This document shows, one piece after another, positions 5,514 to 20,995 of a stretch of DNA of 24,000 nt (position 1 is the stretch's first letter; each line of letters starts with the position of its first letter). The DNA is taken from positions 7,888 to 31,887 of the forward strand of contig JBGUEO010000014.1 of the NCBI GenBank assembly GCA_041821315.1, in the 5' to 3' direction. Both the position numbers and the translations under genes were made by a program. The notes below the pieces were generated by a model, which saw nothing but the letters and a program-made list of their open reading frames with translations, searched no databases and was not told where the DNA came from. The DNA comes from Velocimicrobium sp. (GTDB taxonomy: Bacteria > Bacillota > Clostridia > Lachnospirales > Lachnospiraceae).

Positions 5514-8072
5514 TCAATTCATGTAACTTATATAGATATTTCCCGCATTTTCAAACATTGTTTTTGCTTTTGAAAGTCCAATTGTTGTACTTCCTGCCAT
5601 TGGATCAAAGTAACTAACACTTGATTCATCATAACCTGTAATTACAATGGCATTGTTATCGTTTTTCATAGCAATAACAAGACTTCCATTACTTACCATA
5701 TACAAAACCTCATCTAAGGTACATCCCGTTAAATTAATCGGATCCTCCAATGATTTTTCCAACGTATCATAAATCGATGTTTTTCCTCTTGAAAGTTCGT
5801 TTGCCTTGGCTGATATTTGATTATGTTGTAAGACCATGTAAAGACAGGCTCCCACGCTATCCACTCCGTCTCCCGTCATCGTTTCTTTTATCTGCCCGAT
5901 TGTTTTACGATTGAATTTTCCACTTCGTTCAAATACCAAACGATTCTCCCAATTTACCACGATTCCCATCTGTTCATCAGCAAGTATAATAGCATCCGAA
6001 GCCTCAGAAAAAGCACCTTCAATTCCTCCAAATGCATATACATAGTATTTTTCATTGATTATTTTTTCTTGCGGTAGATGCAGTGTTGTATCTTCTGACA
6101 AAATTGCATTTAGTGTTGTCTTCACTTTTGGCTTTTTTTCCATTACAAATCCATCTGGCAGTGAAAGATACGCTTCCGTAAGCATAAGTTTTGGTGCTCT
6201 TGTTTTCACACTAATAATTGGTGTTTGTAGCTCTCCTTGTGTCAAAATACTATCATCGGAAATATTTGCATAGGTACCATCCACTTTTTTTACCCGGTAT
6301 AGCTTAATAATGTTTCCGCTCATTTCAGAGTCGACGATATATGCATTTTTTTGCTGATAGGTCTTTACTATATTGCCTTTCATGTCAGTTATCTCAATGT
6401 TATATGCAGGTGTATATACTTTTCCTTCTGTTGTCTCTTTTATATCATCTTCTTTTACATAACCAAAAATAACGTTAGATGCAATGCTGCCAAAAATACG
6501 AACAATTTCTCCTTCTTTTGCCGAAATTTTTTTCTGTTTTTCCGTTTCTAAATCCATAATGTGAAGCGTCTTTGCATCATCTTTATCAATCCACGCAATC
6601 CCATGACTTTCTTTCATAACGGTAAAGCTATTCTTATTGGCAGAATTAACTATGGTTTTTAACTTTTTAGATGAAATATTATAGGAATATACACAATCCT
6701 GTATTGTGAAGTAAAATACTCCTTTTTGACTGACATAGCTAAAATCGCTCATATCTTCTTTTAACATCTGATATGTTGTTTCTAGTGGAATATATACCAA
6801 CTCTTTAATACGATTGGTATCCGCACTGTAATGATACAAAACAAGTGCGACCTTTCCTTCATAGTCTCCTCGATTCATATATCCATATACTATAAAATCC
6901 ATATTCCCGCCATCATCCATACTAAGTATTTGAATATCATGCTGGTCGTAATCATCTCGAAGATAGTCCTCCCCTTGATTACGAAATGAAAATACTCGAA
7001 TTGCCCTATTTTCCGGCAAATTGTAATACCATAATTCTCCACCATGAACAAATGAGACTTTACCATTTTCTGCACTTGTTATAATCTGCATATTCTTTTC
7101 ATTTGTAACACCAATTTTAAATTCACTCTTTGCAAGACTTGTTAGATCAATGTCAAATAACGATTCCATTGTTCTTTCATAATTTAACAAATAAATTCGG
7201 TTCGCCGTATAACGAATGCGATAAAATTCTTTTACATCATAAACTTCCGTTCCAGAATCATTTTTCAGCTGCACAAAATATTCTAGCTGAATGGAAGCAA
7301 TCTCAACGTTAAATTCTTTGATTGTTGGCACTATTTCTGTTAACACTTTTGGTTGAAGCTCTCCCCAAGAGAACATATCAAAACTCGAATGAATGGTTAC
7401 TTTAGCAAAATCATTATCCGCTTCGGAACCATCACTCTCCAAATACATAGTAAGATCTTTCGCCTTTTCTTTGTCTAAACTCTTTTCATGAAATTCCTCA
7501 ACAAAATCCATCTTTTTTTGCAAATAATCGTCCGTCTCATAATATTTAATTCTTGTGTAATAATTTATCTTTCGGCTTTCATCTGTAATAACTGTGATTT
7601 TCATTGCATACTCGGTACTTGTCTCGAGTGTGGCTTCTAGTTTTATCCGCGTTGATTTTCCATTATCCGTAACATCCAATGCACTAATTGTACCAGAATC
7701 TAAAAGCTCATTGTTCTTCAATGTACGAATTTCATATTTTATCTTTTTAATAACCGTTTCATTCTCTGCAAATTCAACCGTCATCTCTTTTTCTTGATTG
7801 ATTGGTGTAATCGCCTCACGAATTACATTTGCATCTATATTACTACTGTATCCATGCAAGCGGTTTAAGGTATAGCCATCCACCACTACATACATCAACG
7901 GAAAGGTTGCATCCTCCATTTCAACCGTTTTTTCTAATGTAATCTGTTCTTCTTTTATATTTTTACTCATAAAAAACAAAGCTAAAATAAAAATTGTAAA
8001 TAATATAACTGTTTTATAAATATGTTTTTGCATTCCCTCACATATGCTCCTATCTTTTTTCAACATATACAT
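5514..8072 (-). CDS. Large membrane-anchored protein of unknown function
   Basis: 852-aa uninterrupted ORF with one N-terminal hydrophobic anchor (TVILFTIFILALFF). The body is beta-rich and looks extracytoplasmic. The C-terminal ~120 aa faintly resemble a papain-fold C39-like domain. Start uncertain (ATG 8072, or ATG 8033 = MQKHIYK...). Confidence 0.75.
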   Translation of the reverse strand: MYMLKKDRSICEGMQKHIYKTVILFTIFILALFFMSKNIKEEQITLEKTVEMEDATFPLMYVVVDGYTLNRLHGYSSNIDANVIREAITPINQEKEMTVEFAENETVIKKIKYEIRTLKNNELLDSGTISALDVTDNGKSTRIKLEATLETSTEYAMKITVITDESRKINYYTRIKYYETDDYLQKKMDFVEEFHEKSLDKEKAKDLTMYLESDGSEADNDFAKVTIHSSFDMFSWGELQPKVLTEIVPTIKEFNVEIASIQLEYFVQLKNDSGTEVYDVKEFYRIRYTANRIYLLNYERTMESLFDIDLTSLAKSEFKIGVTNEKNMQIITSAENGKVSFVHGGELWYYNLPENRAIRVFSFRNQGEDYLRDDYDQHDIQILSMDDGGNMDFIVYGYMNRGDYEGKVALVLYHYSADTNRIKELVYIPLETTYQMLKEDMSDFSYVSQKGVFYFTIQDCVYSYNISSKKLKTIVNSANKNSFTVMKESHGIAWIDKDDAKTLHIMDLETEKQKKISAKEGEIVRIFGSIASNVIFGYVKEDDIKETTEGKVYTPAYNIEITDMKGNIVKTYQQKNAYIVDSEMSGNIIKLYRVKKVDGTYANISDDSILTQGELQTPIISVKTRAPKLMLTEAYLSLPDGFVMEKKPKVKTTLNAILSEDTTLHLPQEKIINEKYYVYAFGGIEGAFSEASDAIILADEQMGIVVNWENRLVFERSGKFNRKTIGQIKETMTGDGVDSVGACLYMVLQHNQISAKANELSRGKTSIYDTLEKSLEDPINLTGCTLDEVLYMVSNGSLVIAMKNDNNAIVITGYDESSVSYFDPMAGSTTIGLSKAKTMFENAGNIYISYMN

Positions 8073-8230
8073 TCCAATGAAAAGAAGGCTGTTATAAATT
8101 TTGAAGATTCTTTATCCACCGTAATCTCTTCCTATTTTAGTATTGTAACATAGGCAATCCATAGAAATAAAGTGTCATTTATGTTTTTCTTTCATATATT
8201 AATTATAAATGAATCATTATGGGAGTTTTT

Positions 8231-8740
8231 ATGAGAAATGATGACATACCAAACTATCCGTTCTATGGATATGATAATGCAGAAGAACTAGACCGGGACG
8301 TAGACTATATAAAAGGAATCTATCCCCAAACGGTTCGCAAGTTATTAAAAGAAATTGAAGTTGAATGTGACAAATTAGAGTATGATGGAAGCGTTATGTT
8401 TGATCAAATACCAGATACCGTTTCGCTCGGTAAACTAGTTGATACCATCTATGTTCGTGTCGCAGACCAGACATTTGCTCCGCTTAAAACAGAGTGTATT
8501 CGTCCTCCTTACCATCCTTGCTCCGGAAGAAATTGTTCACCTCCTCCTTATCCTCCTTACCCTTACCCTCCTCATCCTTGTGGTCCAAACCGCCCTTGTC
8601 CTCCGGTTCCTAGACCACCTAGACCGGATTATGATAACAATGGAAGCCCGGATTGGATGAGAAACCTCATTTCCGTTCTTTTATATAATGAGATGATTCA
8701 CCGCAGAAGACGATATCGCAGCAGAAAACAGTGGATTTAG
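8231..8740 (+). CDS. Pro/Cys-rich protein of unknown function with conserved-looking N- and C-terminal segments
   Basis: ORF open from 8219. ATG 8231 follows GGGAG by 5 nt. The central stretch RPPYHPCSGRNCSPPPYPPYPYPPHPCGPNRPCPPVPRPPRP is flanked by YPQTVRKLLKEIEVECDKLEYDGSVMFDQIPD and a basic tail LLYNEMIHRRRRYRSRKQWI. I have seen this N/C-terminal pattern in hypothetical proteins of Clostridia (recollection, not searched). Confidence 0.65.
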   Translation: MRNDDIPNYPFYGYDNAEELDRDVDYIKGIYPQTVRKLLKEIEVECDKLEYDGSVMFDQIPDTVSLGKLVDTIYVRVADQTFAPLKTECIRPPYHPCSGRNCSPPPYPPYPYPPHPCGPNRPCPPVPRPPRPDYDNNGSPDWMRNLISVLLYNEMIHRRRRYRSRKQWI

Positions 8741-9848: not shown

Positions 9849-11516
9849 TTACAATTTAAAAATGCTAATGGCCTCCACTAATTCATCTGATAAAGTTCTC
9901 AATACCGTAATTTCTGATCTAATATCATTCACTGCTGCGGTCAACTGTGCGGTTGATGCAGATGTCTCTTCTGTACTTGCCGCATTCTCTTCTGAAATTG
10001 CACTTAAATTAGTGATAATATCCACAACTGTTATTCTAGACTCATTTAAGCTCTTTGTGATATCCGCTATTTCTTTTATTTGGTCAGTAGAATGATTAAT
10101 TCCATAATATACTTCCTTGAAACTGTCCTTTGTCCTATTTAAATGTGAATTCTGTACCTCAATCGTTTCTTTAACAGCATGCATCGTCTCTACTGCCTTA
10201 TTGGAATTATCAATCAAGGTATGTATTACATTACCGATTTCTTTTGCTGACTTTCCAGATTGCTCTGCCAATTTTTTAATTTGGTCAGCAACAACTGCAA
10301 ATCCTTTCCCAGATTCTCCTGCTCTCGCTGCTTCAATCGAAGCATTCAATGATAATAAATTCGTCTCATTAGCGATTGAAGTTATGATATTTGCAGCTTC
10401 CTGGATCTTTAGTGCAAAATCATTCGTTTCATTTGTCTGTTGATAGATTGTATCAATTTCTAACTTTGTCTTTTCATTAATAACGTTTAACTCATCTAAT
10501 GTATTCATGGCAACCGTACCTGATTCAATCATTTTATCTGAATTTATATGGAGCTGCTGTATTGCATTCGAAGTATTTTCAATATTTTCACCCATAATAA
10601 TGGTCTCTCTCGAAGCTTCCTCTGTTGACTGCGCCTGTGATGTAGCTCCAAGTGCCACCTCTTCCACTGCCTTTTCGATGCCATCTGTTGTTGTCGCTGT
10701 TTCCTCCGAAACCTGTTCAAGTTCTTCTGATGCCCCTAACAAAGAGGATGCCGTTTGATTTACCCCTGAAATAATATTTTTAAGAGAATCCTTTAGATGC
10801 AACGTTGCATTTGCTATATCACCAATTTCATCTTTTCTTAAGATATCTTTTTTATCTTGTTCAATACTTAATTCACCTTCCGATATCCTTTTTAAGACTT
10901 CTACATTTCTTGACATTGTCTTTGTAATACTTTGTATAATCATACTTTCAAATATAATCGTTATCAAAACAATTACAATTATACCAATAGCAATTTTAAA
11001 TACAATACTAATATATGTATCCTGCACTACTTTTTGTGGATTTGCCGCAACAAAAATACCTGTAACGTTCTCAGAGCCATTCCCTTTTATTGGAATATAA
11101 TAAGCATAATAGTCTTCTCCCTCAACAACAACTTCATCAAAATATTCTTTACCTTGATTTAAGACTGTATTAGCGACTTCTTCTGGTGCTTTTGTTCCTA
11201 CAACACGAGTACCTTTCTCATCTTTGATTGTTGAAGCAATTCTTTCATCTCCTTCAAAAATTGATATATGAACTCCACCATTGTCATATATTGTATCAAT
11301 AACATGGTTAATCTCATCATTATTTGTACTTCCAGCATTCACAACTTCTTCTTGTTCATATGCTTCTTCTCCTGCATAAGCAGCAACTTTTAACTGATTC
11401 TTAATTTGATCTTGAACACTTTGTTTCACTTCAATTCCAGTAATTATAATTGCGGTTACTCCTATTACAATTGCAGGTCCTAATACCATTGATAATATTT
11501 TTCCTCTAAACTTCAA
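9849..11516 (-). CDS. Methyl-accepting chemotaxis protein with single Cache-type sensor domain
   Basis: TM1, a ~150-aa extracytoplasmic Cache-like region ([42 protein letters not shown]), TM2, HAMP, and the canonical signalling hairpin [38 protein letters not shown] start at 11516, 7 nt after AGAGGA. Confidence 0.9.
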
Positions 11517-11627
11517 TTCTAATTCCTCTTTTTCTGTTTTTTATATTTACTGCATCCAAATAGTACTTTTAATCCTATATAAAATATTGTTAATTTTTTC
11601 AATGTTCAAACATGTTTGAGCTACCTA

Positions 11628-12749
11628 CTAGAAAGCTTCTTTTGATAATTGCAGTTTTTCTTCCGTATAATCCGCATATTTTAAAGCGATTTTACGAAAA
11701 TCCTCATTTATTTCTAAAAATGCATCTACTATCTCAGGATCAAAATGTGCTCCTCGCTCTTCCAAAATAATTTGGACGGCCTTTTTATGACTAAATGGTG
11801 GCTTATAAACACGTTTACTTATAAGGGCATCATATACATCTGCTATAGCCATAATTCTTCCAGACAATGGAATATTCTCTCCCGATATCCCCTCTGGATA
11901 TCCTGTGCCATCCCATTTTTCCTGATGATATCTTGATAATTCCATGGCATATTTCAAAAATGAATTCCTTCCCAATTTCTTGGATGCTGTACTAAGTGCC
12001 GAATATCCAATTATTGCATGCATTTTCATCTCTTCAAATTCTTCCTCTGTCAACTTACCATGTTTTAATAGAATGTCATCCCTTATTCCTATTTTTCCAA
12101 TATCATGTAATGGTGCTGATTTATAAAGAAAACTAATTACCTCATCATTGAGTTCATTTGTATACTTGGGATTATCTCTAAGTTTTTCGGCTAAAATTTT
12201 TACATAATTCTTCGTCCGCTTAATATGACCTCCTGTTTCAGGATCCCTATATTCTGCCAAGCAAGCCATTGCTTCTATCGTTGTTTCCTGCGTTAGAGTG
12301 AGTTCTTTTGTTCGTTCGCTTACCTTTTCTTCAAGCGTTTCATTTTGCATTGCTAACTCATTTTGAGCAAGTTGAAGGGATAGGTGTGTCTGTACTCTTG
12401 CTTTCACCTCAAGGATTTCAAATGGCTTAGTTATGTAATCTACTGCCCCCACTTCAAACCCTTTCGTTTTACTCTCAATATCAGTCATTGCAGTTAAAAA
12501 AATCACAGGTATATCTTCCGTGTTTTCATTTGATTTTAATTTTTCACATACCTCATAACCACTCATTCCCGGCATCATAATATCCAATAAAATAATGTCA
12601 GGCTTTTCAATATCTATAGCCTCTAAGGCTGATTCCCCATCCATAGCTACCGATAATTCATAATCATCTCCAAGTGCATCAACTAGAATATCCACATTGG
12701 CTTCCGTATCATCCACAATTAGGACCGTAGATTCTGCAAGACTTTTCAT
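11628..12749 (-). CDS. Response regulator with HD-GYP (RpfG-type, putative c-di-GMP phosphodiesterase) output domain
   Basis: REC motifs (LIVDD, phospho-acceptor in ILLDIMMPGMSG, FLTA, KPF), then HD-GYP motifs HDIGK and YHQEKWDGTGYP. The preferred start ATG 12749 forms an ATGA overlap with the kinase stop (12746-12748). The alternative ATG is at 12758. Confidence 0.9.
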   Translation of the reverse strand: MKSLAESTVLIVDDTEANVDILVDALGDDYELSVAMDGESALEAIDIEKPDIILLDIMMPGMSGYEVCEKLKSNENTEDIPVIFLTAMTDIESKTKGFEVGAVDYITKPFEILEVKARVQTHLSLQLAQNELAMQNETLEEKVSERTKELTLTQETTIEAMACLAEYRDPETGGHIKRTKNYVKILAEKLRDNPKYTNELNDEVISFLYKSAPLHDIGKIGIRDDILLKHGKLTEEEFEEMKMHAIIGYSALSTASKKLGRNSFLKYAMELSRYHQEKWDGTGYPEGISGENIPLSGRIMAIADVYDALISKRVYKPPFSHKKAVQIILEERGAHFDPEIVDAFLEINEDFRKIALKYADYTEEKLQLSKEAF

Positions 12750-15466
12750 GAGTCGCATTCCCCCCCTAGTTTCTTTAGTAATTCATCCAATAGCTCAAGT
12801 GCTTCTTTAAATTTATACTTTGTTATCAATTTATCCAAATCCTCAGCATCCTTGTGTAAGTTTAGTGGCCAAATTAGCTCTCGATAACTACTTAACATTT
12901 CTGTACATTTCTTCGGCTTTCTGGTTTTGACAAATGGTCTAATAATCTTGAGTTGTGATATTAATGCATCTGTAGAAGATTCCTCCCCTGATTTTACAGT
13001 TATTACCTCATCAGCAGGCAAAATCTTTTCTATTTTATTGCGCATAATATTCAATGTTTTACCCACATCAATCGTATATTCTTTAATAATATCTTCTGCT
13101 TGCTTCTCTTTTATTGCCTCTTCGAGAACAGCAGCTTTTCTCAGTATCTCCACTGCTCCGATATTTCCAGAGACTCCTTTAAGCGTATGTGCCAAACGCT
13201 GCGCTGTATCATAATCACAGGCATCAAATGCGTGATTAATCTCATCTGTAAAATTCTTCTGCTGCTCTACGTATTTTCTTAATAATTTAATATATGAATT
13301 TTGTTTTCCAAGCACCCTTCTCATTCCTGACTCCACATCAAGTCCGTCTATGTCAATATCCAACTTTTTTTCCAATTTCACTTCTTTTGTCCGTTTACCA
13401 TAACCAGCTTCGGCATCCACCTTATGTCTTTGAGGTATCCATTTAGACAATATCAAAAATAATTGTTCAGGATCGATAGGCTTAGCAATATGATCGTTCA
13501 TACCTGACTCTAGACATAACTGTCTATCCTTCTCCATTGCATTGGCTGTCATAGCAATAATCGGAAGTTTTGCATACTCCTGACTACTTCTGATTCTTCT
13601 TGTAGCCTCAAGACCATCCATTACTGGCATCTGCATATCCATCAATATAATATCATATTTTTTCTCACTTACTTTTTCCAAAGCAATTGCTCCATTATCA
13701 GCTATATCCGTTTGAAATTCACCTTCTTCAAGTAATTCCATTGCCACCTGCTGATTCAAATCATTATCTTCAACCAAAAGGATGTTTGCGCCCCTAATGC
13801 CAGCAATTATTGAAGTGATTTTCATTGTGTCTGTAATCATGTTAGAATTTTTATCCCTGCTTATTTCTCCTCCACATACTCTAATGACAGACTCATATAA
13901 TACCATAGGATTAACTGGTTTTACCAAAACCAAATCAATACCTGCCTTATCTGCTTCATGAAAAATTTCTTCTCGTCCATAGCCTGTAACCATAATGCAA
14001 CGTGGTCTATCATGTATATCCAGTGATATAATCTTCGTATAAGCTTCAATACCATTCATTTCTGGCATCTGCATGTCCATGAATATAATTTCATAAAAAT
14101 CATTTCTATGTCCAGCATCTATAGTCATCTCTACCGCTTTCTGCCCACTCTCCGCTTTATCAACACGCAAAGACATTGCAGTCAGCATATCCGCAAGAAT
14201 ATTTCTTGCTTGCTCATTATCATCAACAACAAGTACCCTTCGACCTACAATATTGATATCGCTTGCCACTACATCCTCTATCTTACTTCCAGCCTTTAAC
14301 ATAACTGTAAACCAAAACGTACTACCTTTACCATATTCGGAATCTACTCCTACTTCACCACCCATAAGATTAGCCAATCGTTTTGATATGGCAAGTCCAA
14401 GCCCTGTTCCTCCGTATTTTCTTGTCGTAGATGTATCAGCCTGCTGAAATGATTGGAATAGTCTATCCTTCTGCTCGTCGGTAAGACCGATCCCAGTATC
14501 TTTTACTTCAAACCGAATGAAATAGTTTTCCTCTTCGCGACTTATCATTTTGATTCGTACAATGATTTCACCTTTTTCTGTAAACTTAACTGCATTATTC
14601 GCATAATTAATTAATATTTGAGACAGTCTGAGTTGATCCCCATATAAGCAATACGATATCTCAGAATCCACATCAAATACTAACTCCAACCCTTTTTCTC
14701 GACATTTATCACCAATAAGATCCGATAAATTTTCAAGAACTCTCCTAAGATTAAACTCAGTGTACTCAATATCAAGCTTTCCTGCCTCAATTTTAGAAAA
14801 ATCCAGAATATCATTGATAACTCCAAGTAAGTGTTGACTTGATCTGTGTATCTTATCAATGTAATCTTTCTGTTTGTTTGTAAGATTAGTTTTCTGGATA
14901 AGATATGTCATCCCCATAATTGCATTCATCGGTGTTCTAATTTCATGACTCATATTTGCAAGAAAATCAGATTTAACTTTTGCAGCTTCTTCCGCAATAT
15001 TTTTTGCTATTAAAAGCTCTTTATTCTTTTCTGCAATTTCTTCCATCAATTCTTCTCTTGACTTTTGCAACAAGTCTTGACTAACTTCTTCTATCAATCC
15101 TTTACTGTATTGATCCGGTATCTGCTCAAAATACTTTTTCAGACTTATGTAATACCTGCTATCCTGCTTTTTGTCTATCTTAACTTCATCAAAAAAACCT
15201 TCTGTTAACTCGCAATTCAACGTTTCCTCTTTACATCCAATGCTTATGATGATACTTTTTCCTATACTGTCTTCGCATATTTGTAATCCAACTGTAGCAT
15301 TTTCTTTCTCTTTGGTCACCCTTCTTAATAGATCAGAAAGAAGTGCCTCAATTCTTGTGGAAGTAATTACAGAAAACCCCAGTTTAATCAGAGCTAAACG
15401 AATTTTCTTTCTTACTTTAACGATGGAATTACTATCTGTTATTATTAAGCATCCTAGATCTGTCAT
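12746..15466 (-). CDS. Cytoplasmic hybrid sensor histidine kinase (N-domain / coiled coil / HisKA / HATPase_c / REC / REC / HPt)
   Basis: No TM segments. H-box FLANMSHEIRTPMN. N/G boxes (DTGIGL, GGTGLGLAISKRL). Two receivers (VLVVDDNE...FMDMQMPEMNG; ILLVEDND...ILMDMQMPVMDG...AMTANA). HPt motif AHTLKGVSGNIGA. GAGG SD 8 nt upstream. Confidence 0.9.
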   Translation of the reverse strand: MTDLGCLIITDSNSIVKVRKKIRLALIKLGFSVITSTRIEALLSDLLRRVTKEKENATVGLQICEDSIGKSIIISIGCKEETLNCELTEGFFDEVKIDKKQDSRYYISLKKYFEQIPDQYSKGLIEEVSQDLLQKSREELMEEIAEKNKELLIAKNIAEEAAKVKSDFLANMSHEIRTPMNAIMGMTYLIQKTNLTNKQKDYIDKIHRSSQHLLGVINDILDFSKIEAGKLDIEYTEFNLRRVLENLSDLIGDKCREKGLELVFDVDSEISYCLYGDQLRLSQILINYANNAVKFTEKGEIIVRIKMISREEENYFIRFEVKDTGIGLTDEQKDRLFQSFQQADTSTTRKYGGTGLGLAISKRLANLMGGEVGVDSEYGKGSTFWFTVMLKAGSKIEDVVASDINIVGRRVLVVDDNEQARNILADMLTAMSLRVDKAESGQKAVEMTIDAGHRNDFYEIIFMDMQMPEMNGIEAYTKIISLDIHDRPRCIMVTGYGREEIFHEADKAGIDLVLVKPVNPMVLYESVIRVCGGEISRDKNSNMITDTMKITSIIAGIRGANILLVEDNDLNQQVAMELLEEGEFQTDIADNGAIALEKVSEKKYDIILMDMQMPVMDGLEATRRIRSSQEYAKLPIIAMTANAMEKDRQLCLESGMNDHIAKPIDPEQLFLILSKWIPQRHKVDAEAGYGKRTKEVKLEKKLDIDIDGLDVESGMRRVLGKQNSYIKLLRKYVEQQKNFTDEINHAFDACDYDTAQRLAHTLKGVSGNIGAVEILRKAAVLEEAIKEKQAEDIIKEYTIDVGKTLNIMRNKIEKILPADEVITVKSGEESSTDALISQLKIIRPFVKTRKPKKCTEMLSSYRELIWPLNLHKDAEDLDKLITKYKFKEALELLDELLKKLGGECDS

Positions 15467-15488
15467 CTATATAACCTCACTTATACAG

Positions 15489-16076
15489 CTATTTTAAATA
15501 CTTATATGCAATACATGCGGCGTCATCATTACCTCGTGCAAACCTACTCATAATTTCTTTGGTGATTACTTCTGCACACTCCTTAAAAAGTCCCGCACAT
15601 TCTAACTCATCAAAGTGTTCGCGAATACCATCCGTATGTAATAGTATTGTATCTCCAGGTACTAACTCTGCCTCCTGAACCACCGGCCTAATATTCCCAT
15701 ATCCTACAATTCCATCACGTGAAACCAGCCTAATATTTCTATGTCCAAATATTCGAACTGTAATATTTCCTACCGCTGTGTACTGAATTCGTCCTGAATT
15801 ATTGTCAATTATACACAAAGCGGCTACTGCGCCTCTAGTTCCCATCAGTTGTGTATGAAGACCATTCATAATGGTAAATAGATCATTATGATGATTCTTC
15901 TCCAGATATTCTTCAGCTATTATACCTACCTGCCTCGCTTCTGATCCATGACCTAGAACATCAATCATGGCAAGAAAACACTTATCCCCATCATCAAAGA
16001 TTTTCCCGCAATCACCACACTCAGACATTACACGCAACATTGGATATATTAGCAATGCGTAATCTGCTTTATTCAT
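15489..16076 (-). CDS. RsbX-like PP2C/SpoIIE-family feedback phosphatase
   Basis: 195 aa, the size of B. subtilis RsbX. Shares its landmark motifs CGD, (I/A)D(V/G)LGHG, RGA, VGN, HTDG and DD near the C-terminus. Its start overlaps the RsbT-like gene by 8 nt. Confidence 0.8.
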   Translation of the reverse strand: MNKADYALLIYPMLRVMSECGDCGKIFDDGDKCFLAMIDVLGHGSEARQVGIIAEEYLEKNHHNDLFTIMNGLHTQLMGTRGAVAALCIIDNNSGRIQYTAVGNITVRIFGHRNIRLVSRDGIVGYGNIRPVVQEAELVPGDTILLHTDGIREHFDELECAGLFKECAEVITKEIMSRFARGNDDAACIAYKYLK

Positions 16077-16536
16077 TAATTCTCCATTTCCTAGCTAAAA
16101 TACGAGTTCCTCTTCCATAAATTGATTCAATAAAAAACTCATCCATAATTCGTTTCACAGTAGGCAGACCTTGACCTAAGCTATTAGGCGTAGTACTATA
16201 TTGCTCCTTCATAGCTAAATCAATATCTGCTATCCCCGGTCCAAAATCACATGCAAGCAACTCAATTCCCACTACATTACTATCCGTTTTTTGTATAATA
16301 TTAATCTCCATTTTGCCTTTGCCCGCATAGCGTAAAATATTGGTTGCTAGTTCTGAAGCAGCTACAGCTACCATGAATTCATCATTATTTCGAAACTTGG
16401 CATTTGTAGCCATACTACGCACAGAATAGATAACTAGTTCATTATCATTTGCCTGATATAGCTCAATAACTTTTTTATCAATCACATGTCCTATGTTACC
16501 TGACACAATCGTAAAATCAGCATTTTTAACACTCAT
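16069..16536 (-). CDS. RsbT-like GHKL serine/threonine kinase (anti-sigma-regulatory-factor type)
   Basis: 155 aa with N-box SELATNILRYA, G1 DFGPGIADID and G2 GQGLPTVKRIMDEF. It overlaps the STAS gene by 11 nt. Good GAAGGA SD. Confidence 0.85.
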   Translation of the reverse strand: MSVKNADFTIVSGNIGHVIDKKVIELYQANDNELVIYSVRSMATNAKFRNNDEFMVAVAASELATNILRYAGKGKMEINIIQKTDSNVVGIELLACDFGPGIADIDLAMKEQYSTTPNSLGQGLPTVKRIMDEFFIESIYGRGTRILARKWRINE

Positions 16537-16915
16537 GTTTATATCCTTCTTTTAATATTGCAAGTGCATGTTCAAGGTTTAGAGCTGCCTGTATTTGACT
16601 ATCATCAATGGCAATATTTAAATCAATTAACGCACAGATCACCCCTGGCTTAAGTCCTGCCCATATAACTTTAATTCCCATTAAGTTCAAAGCTCTAGAA
16701 ACATTCTTAAATGCAGTAAATGCATATGTATCCAACACACCTATTACTGAAAAATCCAACACTGCTCCAGACAAATCCAGAGCATCGACTTTATCCATAA
16801 TTCTATTAATAAGTGTTCTAACCTCATCATCTGACATTTCACCTGGAATCGTAGCTATCAAGCAATGATTAATTTCTGTAATCGACGTACTGAATTCAAT
16901 TTCAGTCTCTTTCAT
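16526..16915 (-). CDS. RsbS-like single-domain STAS protein
   Basis: 129 aa and colinear with B. subtilis RsbS. The phosphorylatable position is Thr in VLDFSVIGVLDTYAF (RsbS has IDLTSVDMIDSF), followed by LMGIKVIWAGLKPGV. Confidence 0.85.
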   Translation of the reverse strand: MKETEIEFSTSITEINHCLIATIPGEMSDDEVRTLINRIMDKVDALDLSGAVLDFSVIGVLDTYAFTAFKNVSRALNLMGIKVIWAGLKPGVICALIDLNIAIDDSQIQAALNLEHALAILKEGYKHEC

Positions 16916-16928
16916 AAATATAACATCC

Positions 16929-17738
16929 TTACTTATTTAGTTTATTCACTTCGATATTTAATATTGCAAAAGCTTCAGATAATGCATCGCTCAGTGTTGA
17001 TCTTGTCCGAATTGTTTCCATATTAATTCCAAGTTGTAATATCGTCTGTGCCACAGCCGGTGATATTCCTGAGATGATACATTCGCACCCCATTAATTTC
17101 GTTGCCTTTGTTATTTTAATCAAATGATTGGCAACTGCTGTATCAACCGCTGCAACTCCATGAATATCCAATATAATGACTTTAGAATATGTTTCCTCAA
17201 TTTTATTTAGCATGCTTTCCATCATATGCTGTGCTCTCATTGAATCAACTACGCCAACCACTGGTTGTACCAAAACCCCTTCCCAAAGTTTAATCGTTGG
17301 AGTGGACATCTGTCGTATCGTATTGCTCTGTTCACGCAGTCTTTCCTCATAACGTACCTGTTCGGTAATGTCTAAAATATATTCTAACCCACCAATAATC
17401 TCATCGTTATCATCTTTTAATGGTACTGCATGATATTCAATTGGTATTTTGTTATTCCCAATTGTGATTTCATTACGCGCAGAAAAGGATTTTTTATTCT
17501 CAAGGGCTTTTTTTACATAACAGTTATCAGAACCACAATGAAGAAAGTTAAACACCTCAAAACATTTCTTACCAACAATATCATCCAACTCTTTGTTCCA
17601 AAGCTTTGTTCCTGCTTCGTTGATGTACATAATCTCCAAATCCTTATTAACAGCCATAACTGGGTTTGGGATTTGATTCAGTATTTGATCTCTTAGTTTT
17701 GAATCTGCTATAACTGTTTCTTTTTCATTTGCTTTCAT
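16929..17738 (-). CDS. RsbR-like stressosome sensor: N-terminal PAS domain plus C-terminal STAS domain
   Basis: The C-terminal 120 aa align by eye with the RsbR C-terminus (STPTIKLWEGVLVQPVVGVVDSMRAQ...ILDIHGVAAVDTAVANHL...LMGCECIISGISPAVAQTILQLGI). The N-terminal 130 aa have a PAS pattern (PNPVMAVNKDLEIMYINEAG...DITEQ). AGGAGG SD 5 nt upstream. Confidence 0.85.
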   Translation of the reverse strand: MKANEKETVIADSKLRDQILNQIPNPVMAVNKDLEIMYINEAGTKLWNKELDDIVGKKCFEVFNFLHCGSDNCYVKKALENKKSFSARNEITIGNNKIPIEYHAVPLKDDNDEIIGGLEYILDITEQVRYEERLREQSNTIRQMSTPTIKLWEGVLVQPVVGVVDSMRAQHMMESMLNKIEETYSKVIILDIHGVAAVDTAVANHLIKITKATKLMGCECIISGISPAVAQTILQLGINMETIRTRSTLSDALSEAFAILNIEVNKLNK

Positions 17739-18067: not shown

Positions 18068-19000
18068 CTAATCTATATTATATTTTCTTTTAAATTCATT
18101 TACCAGATTACTTGGTACTCTATAATCACTACTCAACACCTGAAACATTTCATATTTTGATAAATAATAAATATCTCGAGGTTTGTATCGGATAAGCGAT
18201 GCATAAAGTGCTTTTAAAAACCACGATACACCCTCATCCTTCAACCCTTTTTGATAATGTGCATAAGCTAAATAAAAAAGTCCATGATGCCCGAGCTCAT
18301 AAGAACTCATCTCAATTTGATATTGATTAAGCTTACATCCTTCCTCAATTACCTTATCTAATTCACCTAAGAGATAATGCAACGTGATTTCACTAATTTT
18401 GACTGCAATTACAACTTGGGCATTCTTTTCAACATTCTGTTTATTAGCGATTATTTCACTCGCTGCTAAAACCGCATATTGGGCATTATCTAAATCCATT
18501 ATCATTTGATAACACGTCGATAATAGAATATAAAATCTTGCAAAACAAATACTCTTCGAGTATTTGGATTCAACATTTTGTATTTTATTCTTTATCTCCT
18601 TTATTGCCTCGCAACATCTTCCCTCTTTTAATGTCATATATGCAATTCTATTGTGGTCTATTTCATAAACCCATGGCTTTCTATGAAAATCTGGCAATAG
18701 AAACGCTTTATCTGTTGCCTCTTGCAATGCATCCATATCATTTTCAATTCTATATTTATTAAATCGGCCTATAATTTCCTCGACCTCAATTGGATTGATA
18801 CAGTCAAGATACTCATAATATTTAAATAAATCAACTCCCATTCTATCTCCAAATGCTCTGGATACTTCAACAGAAGGTGTTCTCGTCCCCTTTTCAATCA
18901 AGTAAACATATTTTTCTGAACAAATATTTTCTGATAACTCTTTACGACTTATCCCCATTTTATTGCGATATTCTTTAATTATATTACCAATATAAGCCAT
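18068..19000 (-). CDS. XRE-family HTH regulator with TPR-like C-terminal domain (PlcR/RNPP-like)
   Basis: The N-terminal HTH IKEYRNKMGISRKELSENICSEKYVYLIEKGTRTPSVEV resembles PlcR (LSENICHQSEVSRIESG). The remaining ~240 aa are helical-repeat-like. GGAGAGAAGG SD. Confidence 0.8.
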   Translation of the reverse strand: MAYIGNIIKEYRNKMGISRKELSENICSEKYVYLIEKGTRTPSVEVSRAFGDRMGVDLFKYYEYLDCINPIEVEEIIGRFNKYRIENDMDALQEATDKAFLLPDFHRKPWVYEIDHNRIAYMTLKEGRCCEAIKEIKNKIQNVESKYSKSICFARFYILLSTCYQMIMDLDNAQYAVLAASEIIANKQNVEKNAQVVIAVKISEITLHYLLGELDKVIEEGCKLNQYQIEMSSYELGHHGLFYLAYAHYQKGLKDEGVSWFLKALYASLIRYKPRDIYYLSKYEMFQVLSSDYRVPSNLVNEFKRKYNID

Positions 19001-19343
19001 CCTTCTCTCCTTCTGGATAATGCAATCAATCCATCACAAAATCTTTCTTTCCCATATACTCTGTTAATATTGCACCTATCAAAAATTTACTTAAAATTAA
19101 ACTAAGTACTATTACCAAAATTAATACTCTGATTCCTTTTTCTTTCTTATTTTCAATAGAGAATACTATGATTTATTATATACTATAGTTCTAAAATTTT
19201 TCTAAAACCTGCTATTCTTCTATATTCTTTGTATCACATTTGACAAACATTAAGAATTCCTCCATTATAATGTTTACAAATTAATTTTTTGATGATATTC
19301 TATGCAAGAAAGTATGTGTTAATATGGATGAGGTAAGTTATAA

Positions 19344-20621
19344 ATGAATAAAAACGAAAGTCAAAAAAGTAGTCTTGATTACTATAAATCAATTTTTTTA
19401 GATAATGCAGTTGAATGTGCCTGGGTATACTCTTTAACCGATAAATGTTTTAAATATATCAGTCCATCTGTCTTTAATCTTCGTGGATTTACAGTAGAAG
19501 AGGCAATGAACGAATCTCTTGAAGATTCTTTAACTCCTGAATCATTACAAAAAATCAAAAACTCTGGACTAAAAAGATATCCTCGCTTTATATCTGGAGA
19601 CCGTAGCGAAGAAATTGTTTCTGATATAAGTGAATATGAACAATACTGTAAGGATGGTTCTACAAAGATCATTGAGATTTCTACCAGACTGATTTATAGT
19701 GAAACTACTAACAGTATTGATGTCTTTGGAATTTCTAGAGATATCACAATACGAATACAATACGAAAATGAATTACTAGAAAAATTACGTGAGAAAACAG
19801 AATTACTAGAAAATCGAAAACCTCTCCTTCAAAATGAATTGTTAAATGTCCGTATTTACTTTTTTGATAAGTTTCTAGTATTCGGTGTTAATCAATCAGA
19901 ACCTTTACACTGGCATACATTTAAAAATGAAGAATTATTTGTTTTCTTTCTTTCTCAAGATAGCTCATCAATAAGCAAAGATTTAATATTAGATAATTTA
20001 TGGCCAGATATAGATGCTGAAAAAGCAATTACCTATCTACATAATACTTTATGCTCCATGAAAAAAGATTTAAAAAGTATTGGGATTGATTTCCAAACAA
20101 GATTCAAGAACAATCATTATTTTTTTGAATTTCCAGAATACTATTCTGACATCCAGCATTTTTCCAAAATTATTGAAAACACAGTGTTACCATTTGATAG
20201 TGTAGATGAACACTCAGTCGATTATTTCGAGCAAATATTAAAACTATATACTGGTGATTACCTCCATGTAAATGGCTATTTATGGTCTTTGGCTACTAGC
20301 ACAAAATTAAGTAAACAATTCAAATCTGCTGCTTTGGCATTATCAAGATTTTATTTTTTTAAACATGACTATAGTTCAACAAAAAGAGTTTTATTAAGCA
20401 TTTTAAAAATTGATAATTATGATGAATCTATACATGAATTACTTTTAAAAGTCTATTTACAAGATAACGACTATTCTGCTTTTTTAAATCATTATACAGA
20501 ATTAGAACTTTTTTTATTTTCTGAATGTAATTCGAAGCCCCAAAATTCCATTCAATCTTTGTATAATAACTTCTATTTTGATGCAAAACAATGTACCGAA
20601 AAAGAAGAAGCGCATTTTTAA
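19344..20621 (+). CDS. PAS-SARP fusion regulator (PAS / OmpR-type winged helix / BTAD)
   Basis: N-terminal PAS pattern (aa ~10-135, ending ISRDIT). Then the SARP winged-helix pattern (EELFVFFLSQDSSSISKDLILDNLWPDIDAEKAITYLHNTLCSMKKDL). Then a BTAD/TPR-like tail (LYTGDYL...ESIHELLLKVYLQDNDYSAFLNHY). Confidence 0.75.
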   Translation: MNKNESQKSSLDYYKSIFLDNAVECAWVYSLTDKCFKYISPSVFNLRGFTVEEAMNESLEDSLTPESLQKIKNSGLKRYPRFISGDRSEEIVSDISEYEQYCKDGSTKIIEISTRLIYSETTNSIDVFGISRDITIRIQYENELLEKLREKTELLENRKPLLQNELLNVRIYFFDKFLVFGVNQSEPLHWHTFKNEELFVFFLSQDSSSISKDLILDNLWPDIDAEKAITYLHNTLCSMKKDLKSIGIDFQTRFKNNHYFFEFPEYYSDIQHFSKIIENTVLPFDSVDEHSVDYFEQILKLYTGDYLHVNGYLWSLATSTKLSKQFKSAALALSRFYFFKHDYSSTKRVLLSILKIDNYDESIHELLLKVYLQDNDYSAFLNHYTELELFLFSECNSKPQNSIQSLYNNFYFDAKQCTEKEEAHF

Positions 20622-20685
20622 TTTTTCATTCTGGGTTACCTAGACAAATAATTTAAATAGCTTACGAACAAATTCCACTATAAGC

Positions 20686-20740
20686 AAAAATAAGCTTATT
20701 CAATATCATCATAATGAGATAATTGAATAAGCTTATTTTT
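20686..20740. terminator. Perfect 19-bp inverted repeat (terminator-like hairpin or element boundary)
   Basis: AAAAATAAGCTTATTCAAT (20686-20704) / ATTGAATAAGCTTATTTTT (20722-20740) with a 17-nt loop. It lies 65 nt after the PAS-SARP stop and 24 nt before the transposase-like remnant. The A5/T5 ends give U-tracts on both strands. Confidence 0.55.
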
Positions 20741-20763
20741 ATATTTAAGTTCCTATATTGTAA

Positions 20764-20979
20764 ATGACTAATAAAAGTTTGGATTATGATAAAATCCATG
20801 ATTTTGTCATTCAGTGTCGAAAAAGCGGACTGTCTGATAAACAATGGTGTATTGATAATGATATTTTTCCGAGCACTTTCTATTCTTGAATTCGCAAGTT
20901 GCAAAACCATACATATTACGATTATACAACTGACAAAAATTTTTTCACACTACCTTTGGTTAAATTAAAATTTAATTAA
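20764..20979 (+). pseudogene. Remnant of a transposase-accessory HTH protein (IS66 Orf1/TnpA-like) with an in-frame TGA
   Basis: A frame not reported in the ORF track reads MTNKSLDYDKIHDFVIQCRKSGLSDKQWCIDNDIFPSTFYS*IRKLQNHTYYDYTTDKNFFTLPLVKLKFN*. This matches the pattern I recall for the first ORF of IS66-type elements (SGLS..WC....I....FYYW.RKL......F..LP). TGA at 20887-20889 sits where Trp (TGG) is expected. No SD, and no further IS genes follow. Confidence 0.45.
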
Positions 20980-20995
20980 AAAGACGGCCGAACAG

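What the first reader, a model, noticed from the sequence alone, without database searches (positions are those of the whole stretch)
9849..17738. Stressosome-type RsbR-RsbS-RsbT-RsbX module wired to a hybrid histidine kinase, an HD-GYP response regulator and an MCP instead of sigma-B
Six genes are packed head-to-tail on the minus strand, with the following junctions:
- RsbR-like to RsbS-like: 13-nt gap.
- RsbS-like to RsbT-like: 11-nt overlap.
- RsbT-like to RsbX-like: 8-nt overlap.
- RsbX-like to hybrid kinase: 22-nt gap.
- Kinase to REC-HD-GYP regulator: ATGA stop/start overlap at 12746-12749.
A Cache-type MCP follows 111 bp later. The four Rsb-like proteins carry the diagnostic motifs of the B. 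subtilis stressosome proteins. These are the STAS phospho-acceptor Thr in both STAS proteins, the GHKL N/G1/G2 boxes in the kinase, and the RsbX CGD/DxLGHG/HTDG set. In the canonical system RsbT leaves the stressosome to activate RsbU and ultimately sigma-B via RsbV/RsbW. None of RsbU, RsbV, RsbW or a sigma factor is in the window. The next genes are instead a soluble multi-step phosphorelay kinase and a c-di-GMP-type phosphodiesterase regulator. To my knowledge, comparative genomics has noted RsbRST modules with non-sigma outputs (two-component or c-di-GMP enzymes, for example in Vibrio and Moorella). A PAS-sensing stressosome feeding HK -> REC-REC-HPt -> REC-HD-GYP next to a chemoreceptor is, as far as I know, uncharacterised. 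It would link a supramolecular stress hub to second-messenger and motility control in an anaerobe.
Basis: partly seen in the sequence, partly recalled or inferred. Interest (0 to 1): 0.8.

Follow-up and report, generated by a model that had tools for sequence, protein, structure and literature searches.

The report
Stressosome module wired to c-di-GMP phosphorelay
This is a real stress-sensing "stressosome" gene cluster that feeds a histidine-kinase relay and a c-di-GMP-degrading enzyme instead of a sigma factor. That layout is already known from Vibrio, but the kinase starts with an undescribed dead copy of the stressosome's own kinase, which probably links the two halves.

Summary
Seven head-to-tail minus-strand genes encode PAS-STAS RsbR, RsbS, RsbT, RsbX, a soluble hybrid kinase (HisKA-HATPase-REC-REC-Hpt), a REC-HD-GYP regulator and an sCache chemoreceptor. 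All stated junctions and motifs hold.

The novelty claim is overstated. This is the "Vibrio-type" stressosome locus (rsbRSTX + VvD1 hybrid kinase + VvD2 REC-HD), described since 2005. In V. vulnificus it has a cryo-EM structure, shown co-transcription and a motility defect in the D1 mutant. The window, from a Velocimicrobium MAG, differs mainly in its sensor, a Cys-rich PAS domain instead of a globin.

The order R-S-T-X-output recurs in at least 82 loci from many phyla. The chemoreceptor is not a conserved part (12 of 82).

One new point emerged. Kinase residues 1-118 have no Pfam or NCBIfam match. They fold like RsbW/SpoIIAB and are profile-homologous to RsbT, but lack the ATP-binding N, G1 and G2 motifs. 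This domain follows rsbX in 72 of 73 loci. It is fused to kinases, PP2C phosphatases or cyclases, and is weakly detectable in VvD1. I infer that it receives the stressosome signal, doing the job RsbU_N does elsewhere. Its binding partner is untested.

The parts
16929..17738 (-). RsbR-like co-antagonist, 269 aa. PAS sensor at residues 16-129 (nt 17352-17693). STAS domain at residues 141-253 (nt 16980-17318). Phospho-acceptor positions are S166 and T200. The PAS domain carries the motif C59-x8-H67-C68-x4-C73.
   Evidence: Pfam PAS_4 at 2.5e-14 and STAS at 5.3e-15. The STAS domain matches V. vulnificus RsbR 7o0i_B at E 3.4e-47 and Listeria RsbR at about 1e-26. The three Cys are 98-100% conserved and His67 80% conserved in 82 loci.
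16526..16915 (-). RsbS-like single-STAS scaffold, 129 aa. T63 sits at the B. subtilis S59 position.
   Evidence: Pfam STAS at 4.1e-07. Best PDB matches are RsbS 6jhk (4e-13), 6qcm and 7o0i_a.
16069..16536 (-). RsbT-like GHKL Ser/Thr switch kinase, 155 aa, with intact N (N66), G1 (D97xGxG101) and G2 (G121xG123) boxes.
   Evidence: Pfam HATPase_c_2 and NCBIfam spIIAB at 7.8e-12. SpoIIAB structures match at about 3e-4. Invariant columns come from the 20-sequence alignment A3 and motif positions.
15489..16076 (-). RsbX-like single-domain PP2C feedback phosphatase, 195 aa.
   Evidence: Pfam SpoIIE at 5.9e-11. Best PDB match is Moorella MtX 3zt9 at E 3.2e-23, then B. subtilis RsbX 3w40 at 7.7e-06.
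15113..15466 (-). 'NDOM', kinase residues 1-118. It is an unannotated domain with an RsbT/RsbW-like fold and no ATP-binding motifs (a pseudokinase). It carries a conserved basic patch at R19 and K21 on helix 1. I propose it is the stressosome-coupling domain.
   Evidence: No Pfam or NCBIfam hit. AF2 model pLDDT 87, pTM 0.81. Foldseek top hits are RsbW 6m36/6m37, SpoIIAB, UsfX and SiaB. hhalign against the RsbT family gives 91.7% probability and E 7.9e-7, with a deletion over G1-lid-G2. It lies directly after rsbX in 72 of 73 loci.
15017..15112 (-). Conserved helical linker, kinase residues 119-150, with the motif (P)SREELMxEIxxKNxEL leading into the DHp helix.
   Evidence: Alignment A1 consensus. 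AF2 helices at 122-133 and 137-149. The same motif appears in VvD1 as PSRDELMSELKAKNQE.
12746..15016 (-). Catalytic and phosphorelay part of the soluble hybrid kinase: HisKA (H174), HATPase_c, REC1 (D464), REC2 (D610), Hpt (H760), and about 110 unassigned C-terminal residues.
   Evidence: Pfam. Partial NCBIfam matches to BarA, TorS and LuxQ, all below cut-offs. Motif positions. No TM segment.
11628..12749 (-). REC-HD-GYP response regulator (D56; H215D; HQEKWDGTG283YP). It is a predicted c-di-GMP phosphodiesterase.
   Evidence: Pfam Response_reg at 3.5e-27 and HD_5 at 4.6e-29. Partial NCBIfam NosR-family c-di-GMP PDE match at 1.6e-48. Sequence, start codon.
9849..11516 (-). Chemoreceptor with two TM segments and an sCache_3_3 sensor. 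It is adjacent, but not a conserved part of the module.
   Evidence: Pfam sCache_3_3 at 4.2e-24 and MCPsignal at 5.5e-34. TM segments at 5-34 and 163-199. An MCP is present in only 12 of 82 related loci.

Best explanation
The locus is a Vibrio-type stressosome signalling operon in a Clostridia MAG (Velocimicrobium).

Inferred from homology:
- RsbR (Cys-rich PAS sensor plus STAS) and RsbS build a STAS-domain core that holds the RsbT kinase.
- A signal sensed by the PAS domain changes RsbT-dependent phosphorylation of RsbS T63 and RsbR S166/T200.
- RsbX resets those sites.

My inference on the coupling step:
- Output does not go through RsbU to sigma-B. It goes to the hybrid kinase encoded 22 nt downstream.
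- The kinase receives the signal through its first 118 residues. This is a degenerate RsbT/RsbW-like pseudokinase domain that can no longer bind ATP.
- A conserved SREELM helical linker connects that domain to the DHp helix. It would work in the manner described for RsbU_N plus its coiled-coil linker.
- The binding partner is either released RsbT or the STAS core itself. It is not determined.

Inferred from domain logic:
- The kinase autophosphorylates on H174 and relays the phosphate through D464/D610 and Hpt H760 to D56 of the REC-HD-GYP regulator.
- The regulator then hydrolyses c-di-GMP. Motility and biofilm behaviour would be the expected consequences, as suggested for V. vulnificus.

The neighbouring chemoreceptor is probably a separate unit.
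For: Domains and motifs are confirmed. The RsbR STAS domain is 54% identical to V. vulnificus RsbR over the aligned fragment. It matches cryo-EM entry 7o0i at E 3e-47.

The same architecture is present in V. vulnificus L086. Published VvD1 and VvrsbX primers hit L086 with one mismatch each.

Synteny:
- 395 species-level genomes encode this RsbR type.
- Of 82 non-redundant loci, 74 have RsbX.
- In 72 of the 73 loci with sequence beyond rsbX, an NDOM-bearing ORF comes immediately after it.
- No NDOM occurs anywhere else in the 20-kb loci.
- 60 NDOM proteins carry a kinase core.
- 30 of 52 kinases with downstream sequence are followed by REC-HD-GYP.

NDOM is fused to other outputs as well: PAS-adenylate/guanylate cyclase and PAS-PP2C. 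That is the behaviour expected of a portable coupling domain.

NDOM fold and homology: AF2 pLDDT 87. Every Foldseek hit at E<=0.01 (ranks 1-16) is a partner-switching GHKL kinase. hhalign against RsbT gives E 7.9e-7, with G1-lid-G2 deleted and no N-box Asn.

NDOM is always N-terminal in 796 representative proteins. Two further members checked also follow rsbX. VvD1 residues 6-138 match the NDOM profile at 27.8 bits.

Literature: the V. vulnificus locus is co-transcribed (PMC10436020). Its D1 deletion lowers motility and fleQ expression (PMC10014275). No RsbU_N was detected in VvD1 (PMC9237108). The coiled-coil linker model comes from PMC12143880.
Against: - Nothing here is experimental for this organism.
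- The NDOM-VvD1 match is weak and owes much to the linker motif.
- Foldseek E-values are moderate, about 1e-4, with query-normalised TM about 0.55.
- The AF2 alignment has only 35 sequences.
- Heinz et al. report failing to detect a VvRsbT-VvD1 interaction (PMC9237108). That argues against simple RsbT docking.
- The ATP lid, which contacts STAS in SpoIIAB-type complexes (my recollection of those structures), is deleted in NDOM. Canonical STAS binding is therefore not assured either.
- Only 30 of 52 kinases have an adjacent HD-GYP regulator, so the c-di-GMP output is common but not obligatory.
- HD-GYP activity and specificity are not shown.
- The mirror-tree test could not separate RsbT from RsbS as the partner.
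Confidence: 0.6

Rival explanations
1. RsbT does not dock on the kinase. Instead it transiently phosphorylates it on Ser/Thr, as Heinz et al. proposed for VvD1. NDOM would then be only a dimerisation cap or an unrelated sensor.
For: PMC9237108 proposes this after failing to detect a VvRsbT-VvD1 complex. NDOM has conserved Ser/Thr positions: S14, T37 and S43 in alignment A1.
Against: The substrates of RsbT-type kinases that I know of are STAS domains. NDOM has the kinase fold, not the STAS fold. The strict position after rsbX, and the fusion to three unrelated output enzymes, fit a docking or receiver module better than a substrate site.
Confidence: 0.15
2. The four Rsb-like proteins act as a small soluble partner-switching set, not as a large icosahedral stressosome. 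The kinase would be regulated by 1:1 STAS-kinase exchanges.
For: Assembly cannot be read from sequence. RsbS is the most divergent component, with a mean pairwise distance of 0.68. Variant operons exist with extra STAS genes and a STAS-kinase fusion (L088).
Against: The RsbR STAS domain is very highly conserved, with 75% mean column identity in A2 including V. vulnificus. Its closest solved relatives are all stressosome cores: 7o0i, 6qcm and 7b0u.
Confidence: 0.15
3. The chemoreceptor is an integral output or input of the module, so the stressosome directly controls chemotaxis.
For: The MCP lies 111 nt downstream on the same strand, and no terminator-like site was found. MCPs also flank the module in Clostridium FP2 (L001), L016, L085, L049 and V. 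vulnificus L086, which also has a nearby CheV.
Against: Only 12 of 82 loci have any MCP within +-10 kb. The MCP sensor types differ between loci: sCache, 4HB and PAS. Their position and strand vary. A promoter-like site (11718-11689, minus strand) lies just upstream of the MCP gene, inside the 3' end of the regulator gene.
Confidence: 0.12
4. The stressosome genes and the two-component genes are neighbours by chance and are functionally unrelated.
For: None beyond the lack of experiments.
Against: An NDOM-bearing ORF directly follows rsbX in 72 of 73 loci with downstream sequence, across Clostridia, Desulfobacterota, Spirochaetes, Ignavibacteria, Fibrobacteres, Victivallales and Bacteroidales. 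The junctions here overlap or are tight. Co-transcription is shown in V. vulnificus (PMC10436020).
Confidence: 0.02

Closest known systems
Vibrio vulnificus / V. brasiliensis stressosome locus (rsbR-rsbS-rsbT-rsbX-VvD1-VvD2; PDB 7o0i; PMC9237108, PMC10014275, PMC10436020, PMC4976288)
   Same: The gene order R-S-T-X is the same, followed by a hybrid kinase (HisKA-HATPase-REC-REC-Hpt) and a REC-HD-type regulator. There is no RsbU_N and no sigma-B branch in the locus. The RsbR STAS domain is 54% identical. The N-terminal NDOM and the SRxELM linker are present in both kinases.
   Different: The RsbR sensor here is a Cys-rich PAS domain, not a haem globin. The kinase here lacks the PAS domain that VvD1 carries between NDOM and HisKA, although many Clostridia homologues have it. 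The host is a low-GC Clostridia MAG rather than a gamma-proteobacterium.
Moorella thermoacetica MtR-MtS-MtT-MtX-MtG (Quin et al. 2012, as cited in PMC4976288 and PMC12143880)
   Same: It is a stressosome module in an anaerobic Firmicute with a c-di-GMP output. The RsbX here is closest to MtX 3zt9 (E 3e-23).
   Different: In Moorella the output is a single RsbU_N-GAF-GGDEF cyclase controlled by RsbT. Here the output is an NDOM-hybrid kinase plus an HD-GYP phosphodiesterase, and no RsbU_N is present.
Bacillus subtilis / Listeria monocytogenes stressosome to RsbU to RsbV/RsbW to sigma-B
   Same: The RsbR/RsbS STAS core, RsbT kinase and RsbX phosphatase are shared, with conserved phospho-acceptor positions.
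   Different: In this locus rsbX directly follows rsbT. No RsbU, RsbV, RsbW or sigma factor is present in the window. The RsbR N-terminus is a PAS domain rather than a non-haem globin.
RsbU_N-coupled outputs (RsbU; proteobacterial RsbU_N-histidine kinases; PMC12143880, PMC9237108)
   Same: An N-terminal partner-binding domain is joined to a dimeric effector by a helical linker. The same domain is swapped between kinase, PP2C and cyclase outputs.
   Different: RsbU_N is a four-helix bundle. NDOM is an alpha/beta GHKL-like fold homologous to RsbT itself. The two are analogous, not homologous.
RsbW / SpoIIAB / UsfX / SiaB partner-switching GHKL kinases (closest folds to NDOM)
   Same: NDOM shares their beta-alpha-alpha-beta-beta...beta-beta topology and the helix-2 'SE' motif.
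   Different: NDOM lacks the N-box Asn, the G1 and G2 boxes and the ATP lid. It is fused to the N-terminus of an effector rather than free-standing.

Membership tests
Stressosome RsbR-RsbS-RsbT(-RsbX) module | RsbR: a variable N-terminal sensor plus a C-terminal STAS domain, with Ser/Thr at the B. subtilis T171 and T205 positions | tested here: met
   PAS + STAS. S166 and T200 align to Listeria T175 and T209. Both are invariant in A2, which includes V. vulnificus.
Stressosome RsbR-RsbS-RsbT(-RsbX) module | RsbS: a single STAS domain with a phospho-acceptor at the S59 position | tested here: met
   Best PDB hits are RsbS 6jhk and 6qcm. T63 aligns with the acceptor Ser.
Stressosome RsbR-RsbS-RsbT(-RsbX) module | RsbT: a small GHKL Ser/Thr kinase with intact N, G1 and G2 boxes | tested here: met
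   HATPase_c_2. N66, D97xGxG101 and G121xG123 are invariant in A3.
Stressosome RsbR-RsbS-RsbT(-RsbX) module | RsbX: a single-domain PP2C phosphatase | tested here: met
   SpoIIE. MtX 3zt9 matches at 3e-23 and RsbX 3w40 at 8e-6.
Stressosome RsbR-RsbS-RsbT(-RsbX) module | Assembly of RsbR and RsbS into a pseudo-icosahedral core that sequesters RsbT | not testable with these tools
   Inferred only from the E 3e-47 similarity to the cryo-EM structure 7o0i.
Vibrio-type stressosome locus (RSTX + D1 + D2) | rsbX directly after rsbT, followed by a hybrid histidine kinase and then a REC-HD regulator | tested here: met
   The layout is identical in V. vulnificus L086. The kinase follows in 60 related loci, and REC-HD-GYP follows 30 of 52 kinases.
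Vibrio-type stressosome locus (RSTX + D1 + D2) | A globin-coupled (haem) sensor at the RsbR N-terminus | tested here: not met
   The N-terminus is PAS_4/PAS_9 with a C-x8-HC-x4-C motif. Protoglobin PF11563 appears only in the Vibrio-like hits.
Vibrio-type stressosome locus (RSTX + D1 + D2) | A c-di-GMP and motility phenotype of the output module | not testable with these tools
   Shown only for V. vulnificus delta-D1 (PMC10014275).
Sigma-B general stress pathway (RsbU/RsbV/RsbW/SigB) | An RsbU_N-PP2C, an RsbV-RsbW pair and a sigma factor in the locus | tested here: not met
   None is found among the ORFs of at least 80 aa in the window. The rest of the genome cannot be searched.
RsbU_N-coupled stressosome outputs | An RsbU_N four-helix domain at the N-terminus of the output protein | tested here: not met
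   There is no RsbU_N hit even at E<=10. The AF2 model is alpha/beta, not a helical bundle.
GHKL partner-switching kinase (applied to NDOM) | A Bergerat-type fold like RsbW, SpoIIAB and RsbT | tested here: met
   Every Foldseek hit at E<=0.01 (ranks 1-16) is from this family, with target-normalised TM up to 0.79. hhalign against RsbT gives 91.7% probability.
GHKL partner-switching kinase (applied to NDOM) | ATP-binding N-box Asn, G1 DxGxG and G2 GxG motifs | tested here: not met
   The N-box position is variable, and the G1-lid-G2 segment is an approximately 20-residue deletion. NDOM is therefore a pseudokinase, not a family member in the catalytic sense.
HD-GYP c-di-GMP phosphodiesterase | An HD_5 domain with HD and GYP motifs behind a receiver with the acceptor Asp | tested here: met
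   HD_5 at 4.6e-29. H215D, HQEKWDGTG283YP and D56 are present. Activity was not tested.
YtvA/LOV blue-light RsbR paralogue | A LOV core with the flavin-binding Cys motif (NCRFLQ), scoring above the NCBIfam cut-off | tested here: not met
   YtvA_fam scores 98.6 bits against a cut-off of 250. No NCRFLQ motif is in the sequence.

The most novel reading that the evidence does not exclude
The N-terminal pseudo-RsbT domain (NDOM) is a decoy that docks the effector enzyme itself on the STAS surface of the stressosome. It would either compete with RsbT or read the phosphorylation marks RsbT writes. In this reading the stressosome sequesters and releases its output kinase, phosphatase or cyclase directly, rather than only releasing RsbT. 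That would be a new partner-switching logic. It would also explain why no RsbT-VvD1 interaction was found in Vibrio.
Probability: 0.25. Interest if true: 0.8.

Novelty: new member of a known kind. Interest (0 to 1): 0.5.

Why it matters
The locus itself adds a Clostridia member with a PAS sensor to the already described Vibrio-type stressosome family, whose output is a two-component system acting on c-di-GMP.

The more useful result concerns an open question stated in the V. vulnificus literature: how the stressosome talks to its kinase when no RsbU_N domain is present. The answer may be a conserved, unannotated domain derived from RsbT. It sits at the N-terminus of the output protein in every one of the 72 loci where an NDOM ORF follows rsbX. 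That yields direct experiments in an existing genetic system, namely NDOM deletions, R19/K21 mutants and binding assays.

The conserved Cys/His motif in the PAS sensor also suggests a redox or metal input in anaerobes, parallel to the O2-sensing globin of Vibrio.

Tried and rejected
I used the RsbR STAS alignment A2 instead.
- Promoter and terminator scan: uninformative, with 57 promoter-like sites against 46.7+-6.5 expected and no terminators. It neither supports nor refutes a single transcript.
- Mirror-tree and partial correlation over 59 loci. NDOM tracks RsbX (0.80), RsbS (0.79) and RsbT (0.75) far better than the kinase core of its own protein (0.52). This is confounded by evolutionary rate, saturation and adjacency, and it does not identify the partner.
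- LOV/YtvA reading of RsbR: rejected.
- Weak Pfam hits on the N-terminus (DAGAT, DUF5823, YLATT; E 0.06-0.1): rejected as noise. PF24896 and PF09582, listed for homologues, map to REC1 and HATPase rather than the N-terminus.
- One published primer, read as its reverse complement, did not match L086 at one mismatch or fewer. Two others matched with one mismatch each.
- Pane-Farre 2005 could not be read because it is not held.
- A second AF2 job was not used. The tool returns no coordinates or PAE, so a fused-chain interface test could not be evaluated.

Full report
**1. Observation**

The window has seven consecutive minus-strand ORFs at exactly the stated coordinates. The junctions are a 13-nt gap, an 11-nt overlap, an 8-nt overlap, a 22-nt gap, an ATGA stop/start overlap and a 111-nt gap. 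The regulator gene could start at 12758 or at 12749.

Pfam supports every assignment above gathering thresholds:
- PAS_4/PAS_9 + STAS
- STAS
- HATPase_c_2
- SpoIIE
- HisKA + HATPase_c + two Response_reg + Hpt
- Response_reg + HD_5
- sCache_3_3 + MCPsignal

Comparison with solved structures gives the specific family for each Rsb protein.
- The RsbR STAS domain matches V. vulnificus stressosome RsbR (7o0i_B, E 3.4e-47) and Listeria RsbR.
- RsbS matches B. subtilis and Listeria RsbS.
- RsbT matches SpoIIAB-type kinases.
- RsbX matches Moorella MtX (3zt9, 3e-23) and B. subtilis RsbX.

Acceptor and catalytic residues are in place:
- RsbR: S166 and T200.
- RsbS: T63.
- RsbT: N66, D97xGxG101 and G121xG123.
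- RsbX: CGD, DVLGHG and HTDG.
- Kinase: H174, D464, D610 and H760.
- Regulator: D56, HD215 and GYP285.

All proteins except the chemoreceptor lack TM segments. The other ORFs in the window are a Bmp-type ABC transporter, regulators (GntR, XRE, PAS-BTAD), an enolase-superfamily enzyme and proteins with no match. None is a sigma factor or RsbU/V/W. The kinase is 100% identical to a protein NCBI labels as a Velocimicrobium sp. MAG.

**2. The arrangement is conserved, not chance**

Full-length kinase homologues from Clostridium sp. FP2, two metagenome contigs and a deltaproteobacterial MAG all sit directly after PAS-STAS / STAS / HATPase_c_2 / SpoIIE genes.

I scanned one genome per species with an alignment of the RsbR STAS domain. 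It found 395 genomes, and I analysed the best 80 loci. ORFs in those loci were compared with the window proteins.
- 82 loci are non-redundant, and 74 of them have RsbX.
- 60 have a kinase of this type right after it.
- 30 of 52 kinases with downstream sequence are followed by REC-HD-GYP.
- Only 12 loci have any MCP within +-10 kb.

The taxa include Clostridia, Desulfobacterota, Spirochaetes, Ignavibacteria, Fibrobacteres, Victivallales, Bacteroidales and a Thermotogae MAG.

**3. It is the known Vibrio-type system**

The literature describes the V. vulnificus locus as rsbR-rsbS-rsbT-rsbX plus a downstream module. That module is VvD1-VvD2, a two-component system thought to degrade c-di-GMP (PMC10014275, PMC9237108, both citing Pane-Farre 2005 and 2017).

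I retrieved that locus as L086, using the RsbR fragment shown in the PDB alignment. Published CMCP6 primers for VvD1 and VvrsbX match it with one mismatch each. VvD1 is a 1063-aa PAS-HisKA-HATPase-REC-REC-Hpt protein. VvD2 is a 378-aa REC-HD_5 protein. A PAS-type MCP lies divergently upstream and a CheV is nearby.

In Vibrio the stressosome structure is solved. All junctions are co-transcribed (PMC10436020). Deleting D1 halves the motility zone and lowers fleQ expression (PMC10014275).

What differs here is the host and the RsbR sensor, which is a PAS domain rather than a globin.

**4. What the PAS sensor looks like**

It is not a LOV domain. YtvA_fam scores 98.6 bits against a 250-bit cut-off, and there is no NCRFLQ motif.

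Across 82 loci, C59, C68 and C73 are 98-100% conserved and H67 is 80% conserved. Many sequences have a fourth Cys next to C73. I infer a metal, Fe-S or thiol-redox site. That would parallel the O2-sensing haem of the Vibrio RsbR, but I could not test it.

**5. An undescribed domain at the start of the kinase**

Pfam and NCBIfam leave kinase residues 1 to about 140 unassigned. About half of the 120 best kinase homologues share this segment. An alignment of 35 sequences (A1) shows three conserved features:
- an N-terminal MxxLG;
- a basic ARKKxR helix, with R19 and K21 nearly invariant;
- ATRIExxxSE, FFD, and then a linker motif (P)SREELMxEIxxKNxEL.

AlphaFold2 gives a confident model (pLDDT 87, pTM 0.81) with the order beta-alpha-alpha-beta-beta-beta-beta, followed by two linker helices. 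Against the PDB, every Foldseek hit at E<=0.01 (ranks 1-16) is a partner-switching GHKL kinase: RsbW (6m36, 6m37), SpoIIAB (1tid, 1th8, 1l0o), UsfX and SiaB.

A profile-profile comparison with 20 RsbT proteins from these operons gives 91.7% probability and E 7.9e-7 over 99 columns. There is a gap of roughly 20 residues exactly where RsbT has G1 (DxGPGI), the lid and G2 (SLGLGLP). There is no conserved Asn at the N-box. The domain, which I call NDOM, is therefore a degenerate RsbT/RsbW-like pseudokinase.

**6. NDOM tracks the stressosome, not the kinase**

- In 72 of the 73 loci with sequence beyond rsbX, the next ORF begins with NDOM. NDOM occurs nowhere else in the 20-kb loci.
- In 12 of those 72 loci no kinase core was detected on the NDOM ORF. 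Some of these ORFs are cut by a contig end. The five I scanned against Pfam are NDOM-PAS-adenylate/guanylate cyclase (2) and NDOM-PAS-PP2C (3).
- An exhaustive profile search of 1.84 billion representative proteins found 796 members (314 at E<=1e-10). In the 150 best listed, the match starts within about 36 residues of the N-terminus, except in P0241, which has tandem NDOM copies.
- Two further members that I looked up also follow rsbX.
- VvD1 residues 6-138 match the NDOM profile at 27.8 bits. They include R19 and R21 and the linker PSRDELMSELKAKNQE.

Heinz et al. state that no RsbU_N is detectable in VvD1 and that they could not show a VvRsbT-VvD1 interaction. NDOM is a candidate for the missing coupling element. 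I found no paper in the held library describing it. That is absence of evidence within that library only.

**7. Mechanism**

The first three steps below are inferred from homology and domain logic. None is shown for this organism.
- The stressosome part works as in the studied systems.
- The phosphorelay runs H174 to D464/D610 to H760 to the regulator's D56.
- The HD-GYP domain hydrolyses c-di-GMP.

The coupling step is my inference from conserved position, fusion pattern and fold, by analogy with the RsbU_N plus coiled-coil linker model (PMC12143880). NDOM plus the SREELM linker would receive the stressosome signal and set kinase activity.

The partner is undetermined. I put RsbT docking at roughly 0.35-0.4. 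Direct docking on the STAS core, or on phospho-STAS, gets about 0.25, favoured by the negative RsbT-D1 result and the basic patch. The rest goes to other options. The mirror-tree analysis did not discriminate between them.

**8. Verdict**

The module is a new member of the Vibrio-type stressosome family, with a PAS sensor and a Clostridia host. The chemoreceptor is probably incidental. The added value is the NDOM pseudokinase domain and the Cys-rich PAS motif, both of which are directly testable.

Noticed in passing
window 17352-17693 (-), RsbR residues 59-73: The PAS sensor carries the motif C59-x8-H67-C68-x4-C73. The three Cys are 98-100% conserved and the His 80% conserved across 82 loci from many phyla, often with a fourth Cys next to C73. 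This suggests a metal, Fe-S or redox-sensing PAS domain.
   Followed up: partly
window 5514-8072 (-): This 852-aa ORF has one N-terminal TM segment (residues 16-40) and no Pfam or NCBIfam match. The neighbouring 173-aa ORF at 8219-8740 (+) also has no match.
   Followed up: partly
L088 2059-6931 (MAG GCA_029262255.1): A variant operon: STAS, STAS, a STAS-HATPase_c_2 fusion (RsbS-RsbT-like), SpoIIE, a kinase with two tandem NDOM copies, then REC and KaiB.
   Followed up: no
L021 and L024 (Acetobacterium tundrae, A. paludosum): No rsbX was detected. The NDOM-kinase follows rsbT directly, and REC-HD-GYP still follows the kinase.
   Followed up: no
L065 (Spirochaetaceae MAG): This is the only locus of the 73 in which no NDOM-bearing ORF follows rsbX. 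RsbS was not detected there either.
   Followed up: no
L038, L042, L063, L073, L078: In Desulfovibrionaceae-like and other proteobacterial loci, NDOM is fused to PAS-adenylate/guanylate cyclase or PAS-PP2C (SpoIIE) outputs instead of a kinase.
   Followed up: partly
L086 7870-9429 (-) and 3666-4649 (+), V. vulnificus: A PAS-MCP lies divergently next to rsbR and a CheV lies 5 kb away. In Clostridium FP2 (L001) an MCP follows the kinase, and REC-HisKA plus REC-AraC genes precede rsbR.
   Followed up: partly
window 19000-21000: An AT-rich stretch (27.5% GC against about 35% elsewhere) holds a PAS+BTAD regulator (19344-20621, +) and an 82-aa ORF with no match.
   Followed up: no
window 12746-13090 (-), kinase residues about 795-906: About 110 residues after the Hpt domain have no domain assignment.
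   Followed up: no
P0058, P0076, P0111 (Nitrospirota 'Magnetobacterium'-type kinases): These kinases share the same overall architecture. Their divergent N-terminal ~130 residues also end in an SRDELF linker motif. phmmer with the window NDOM did not detect this segment. It may be a distant NDOM.
   Followed up: no
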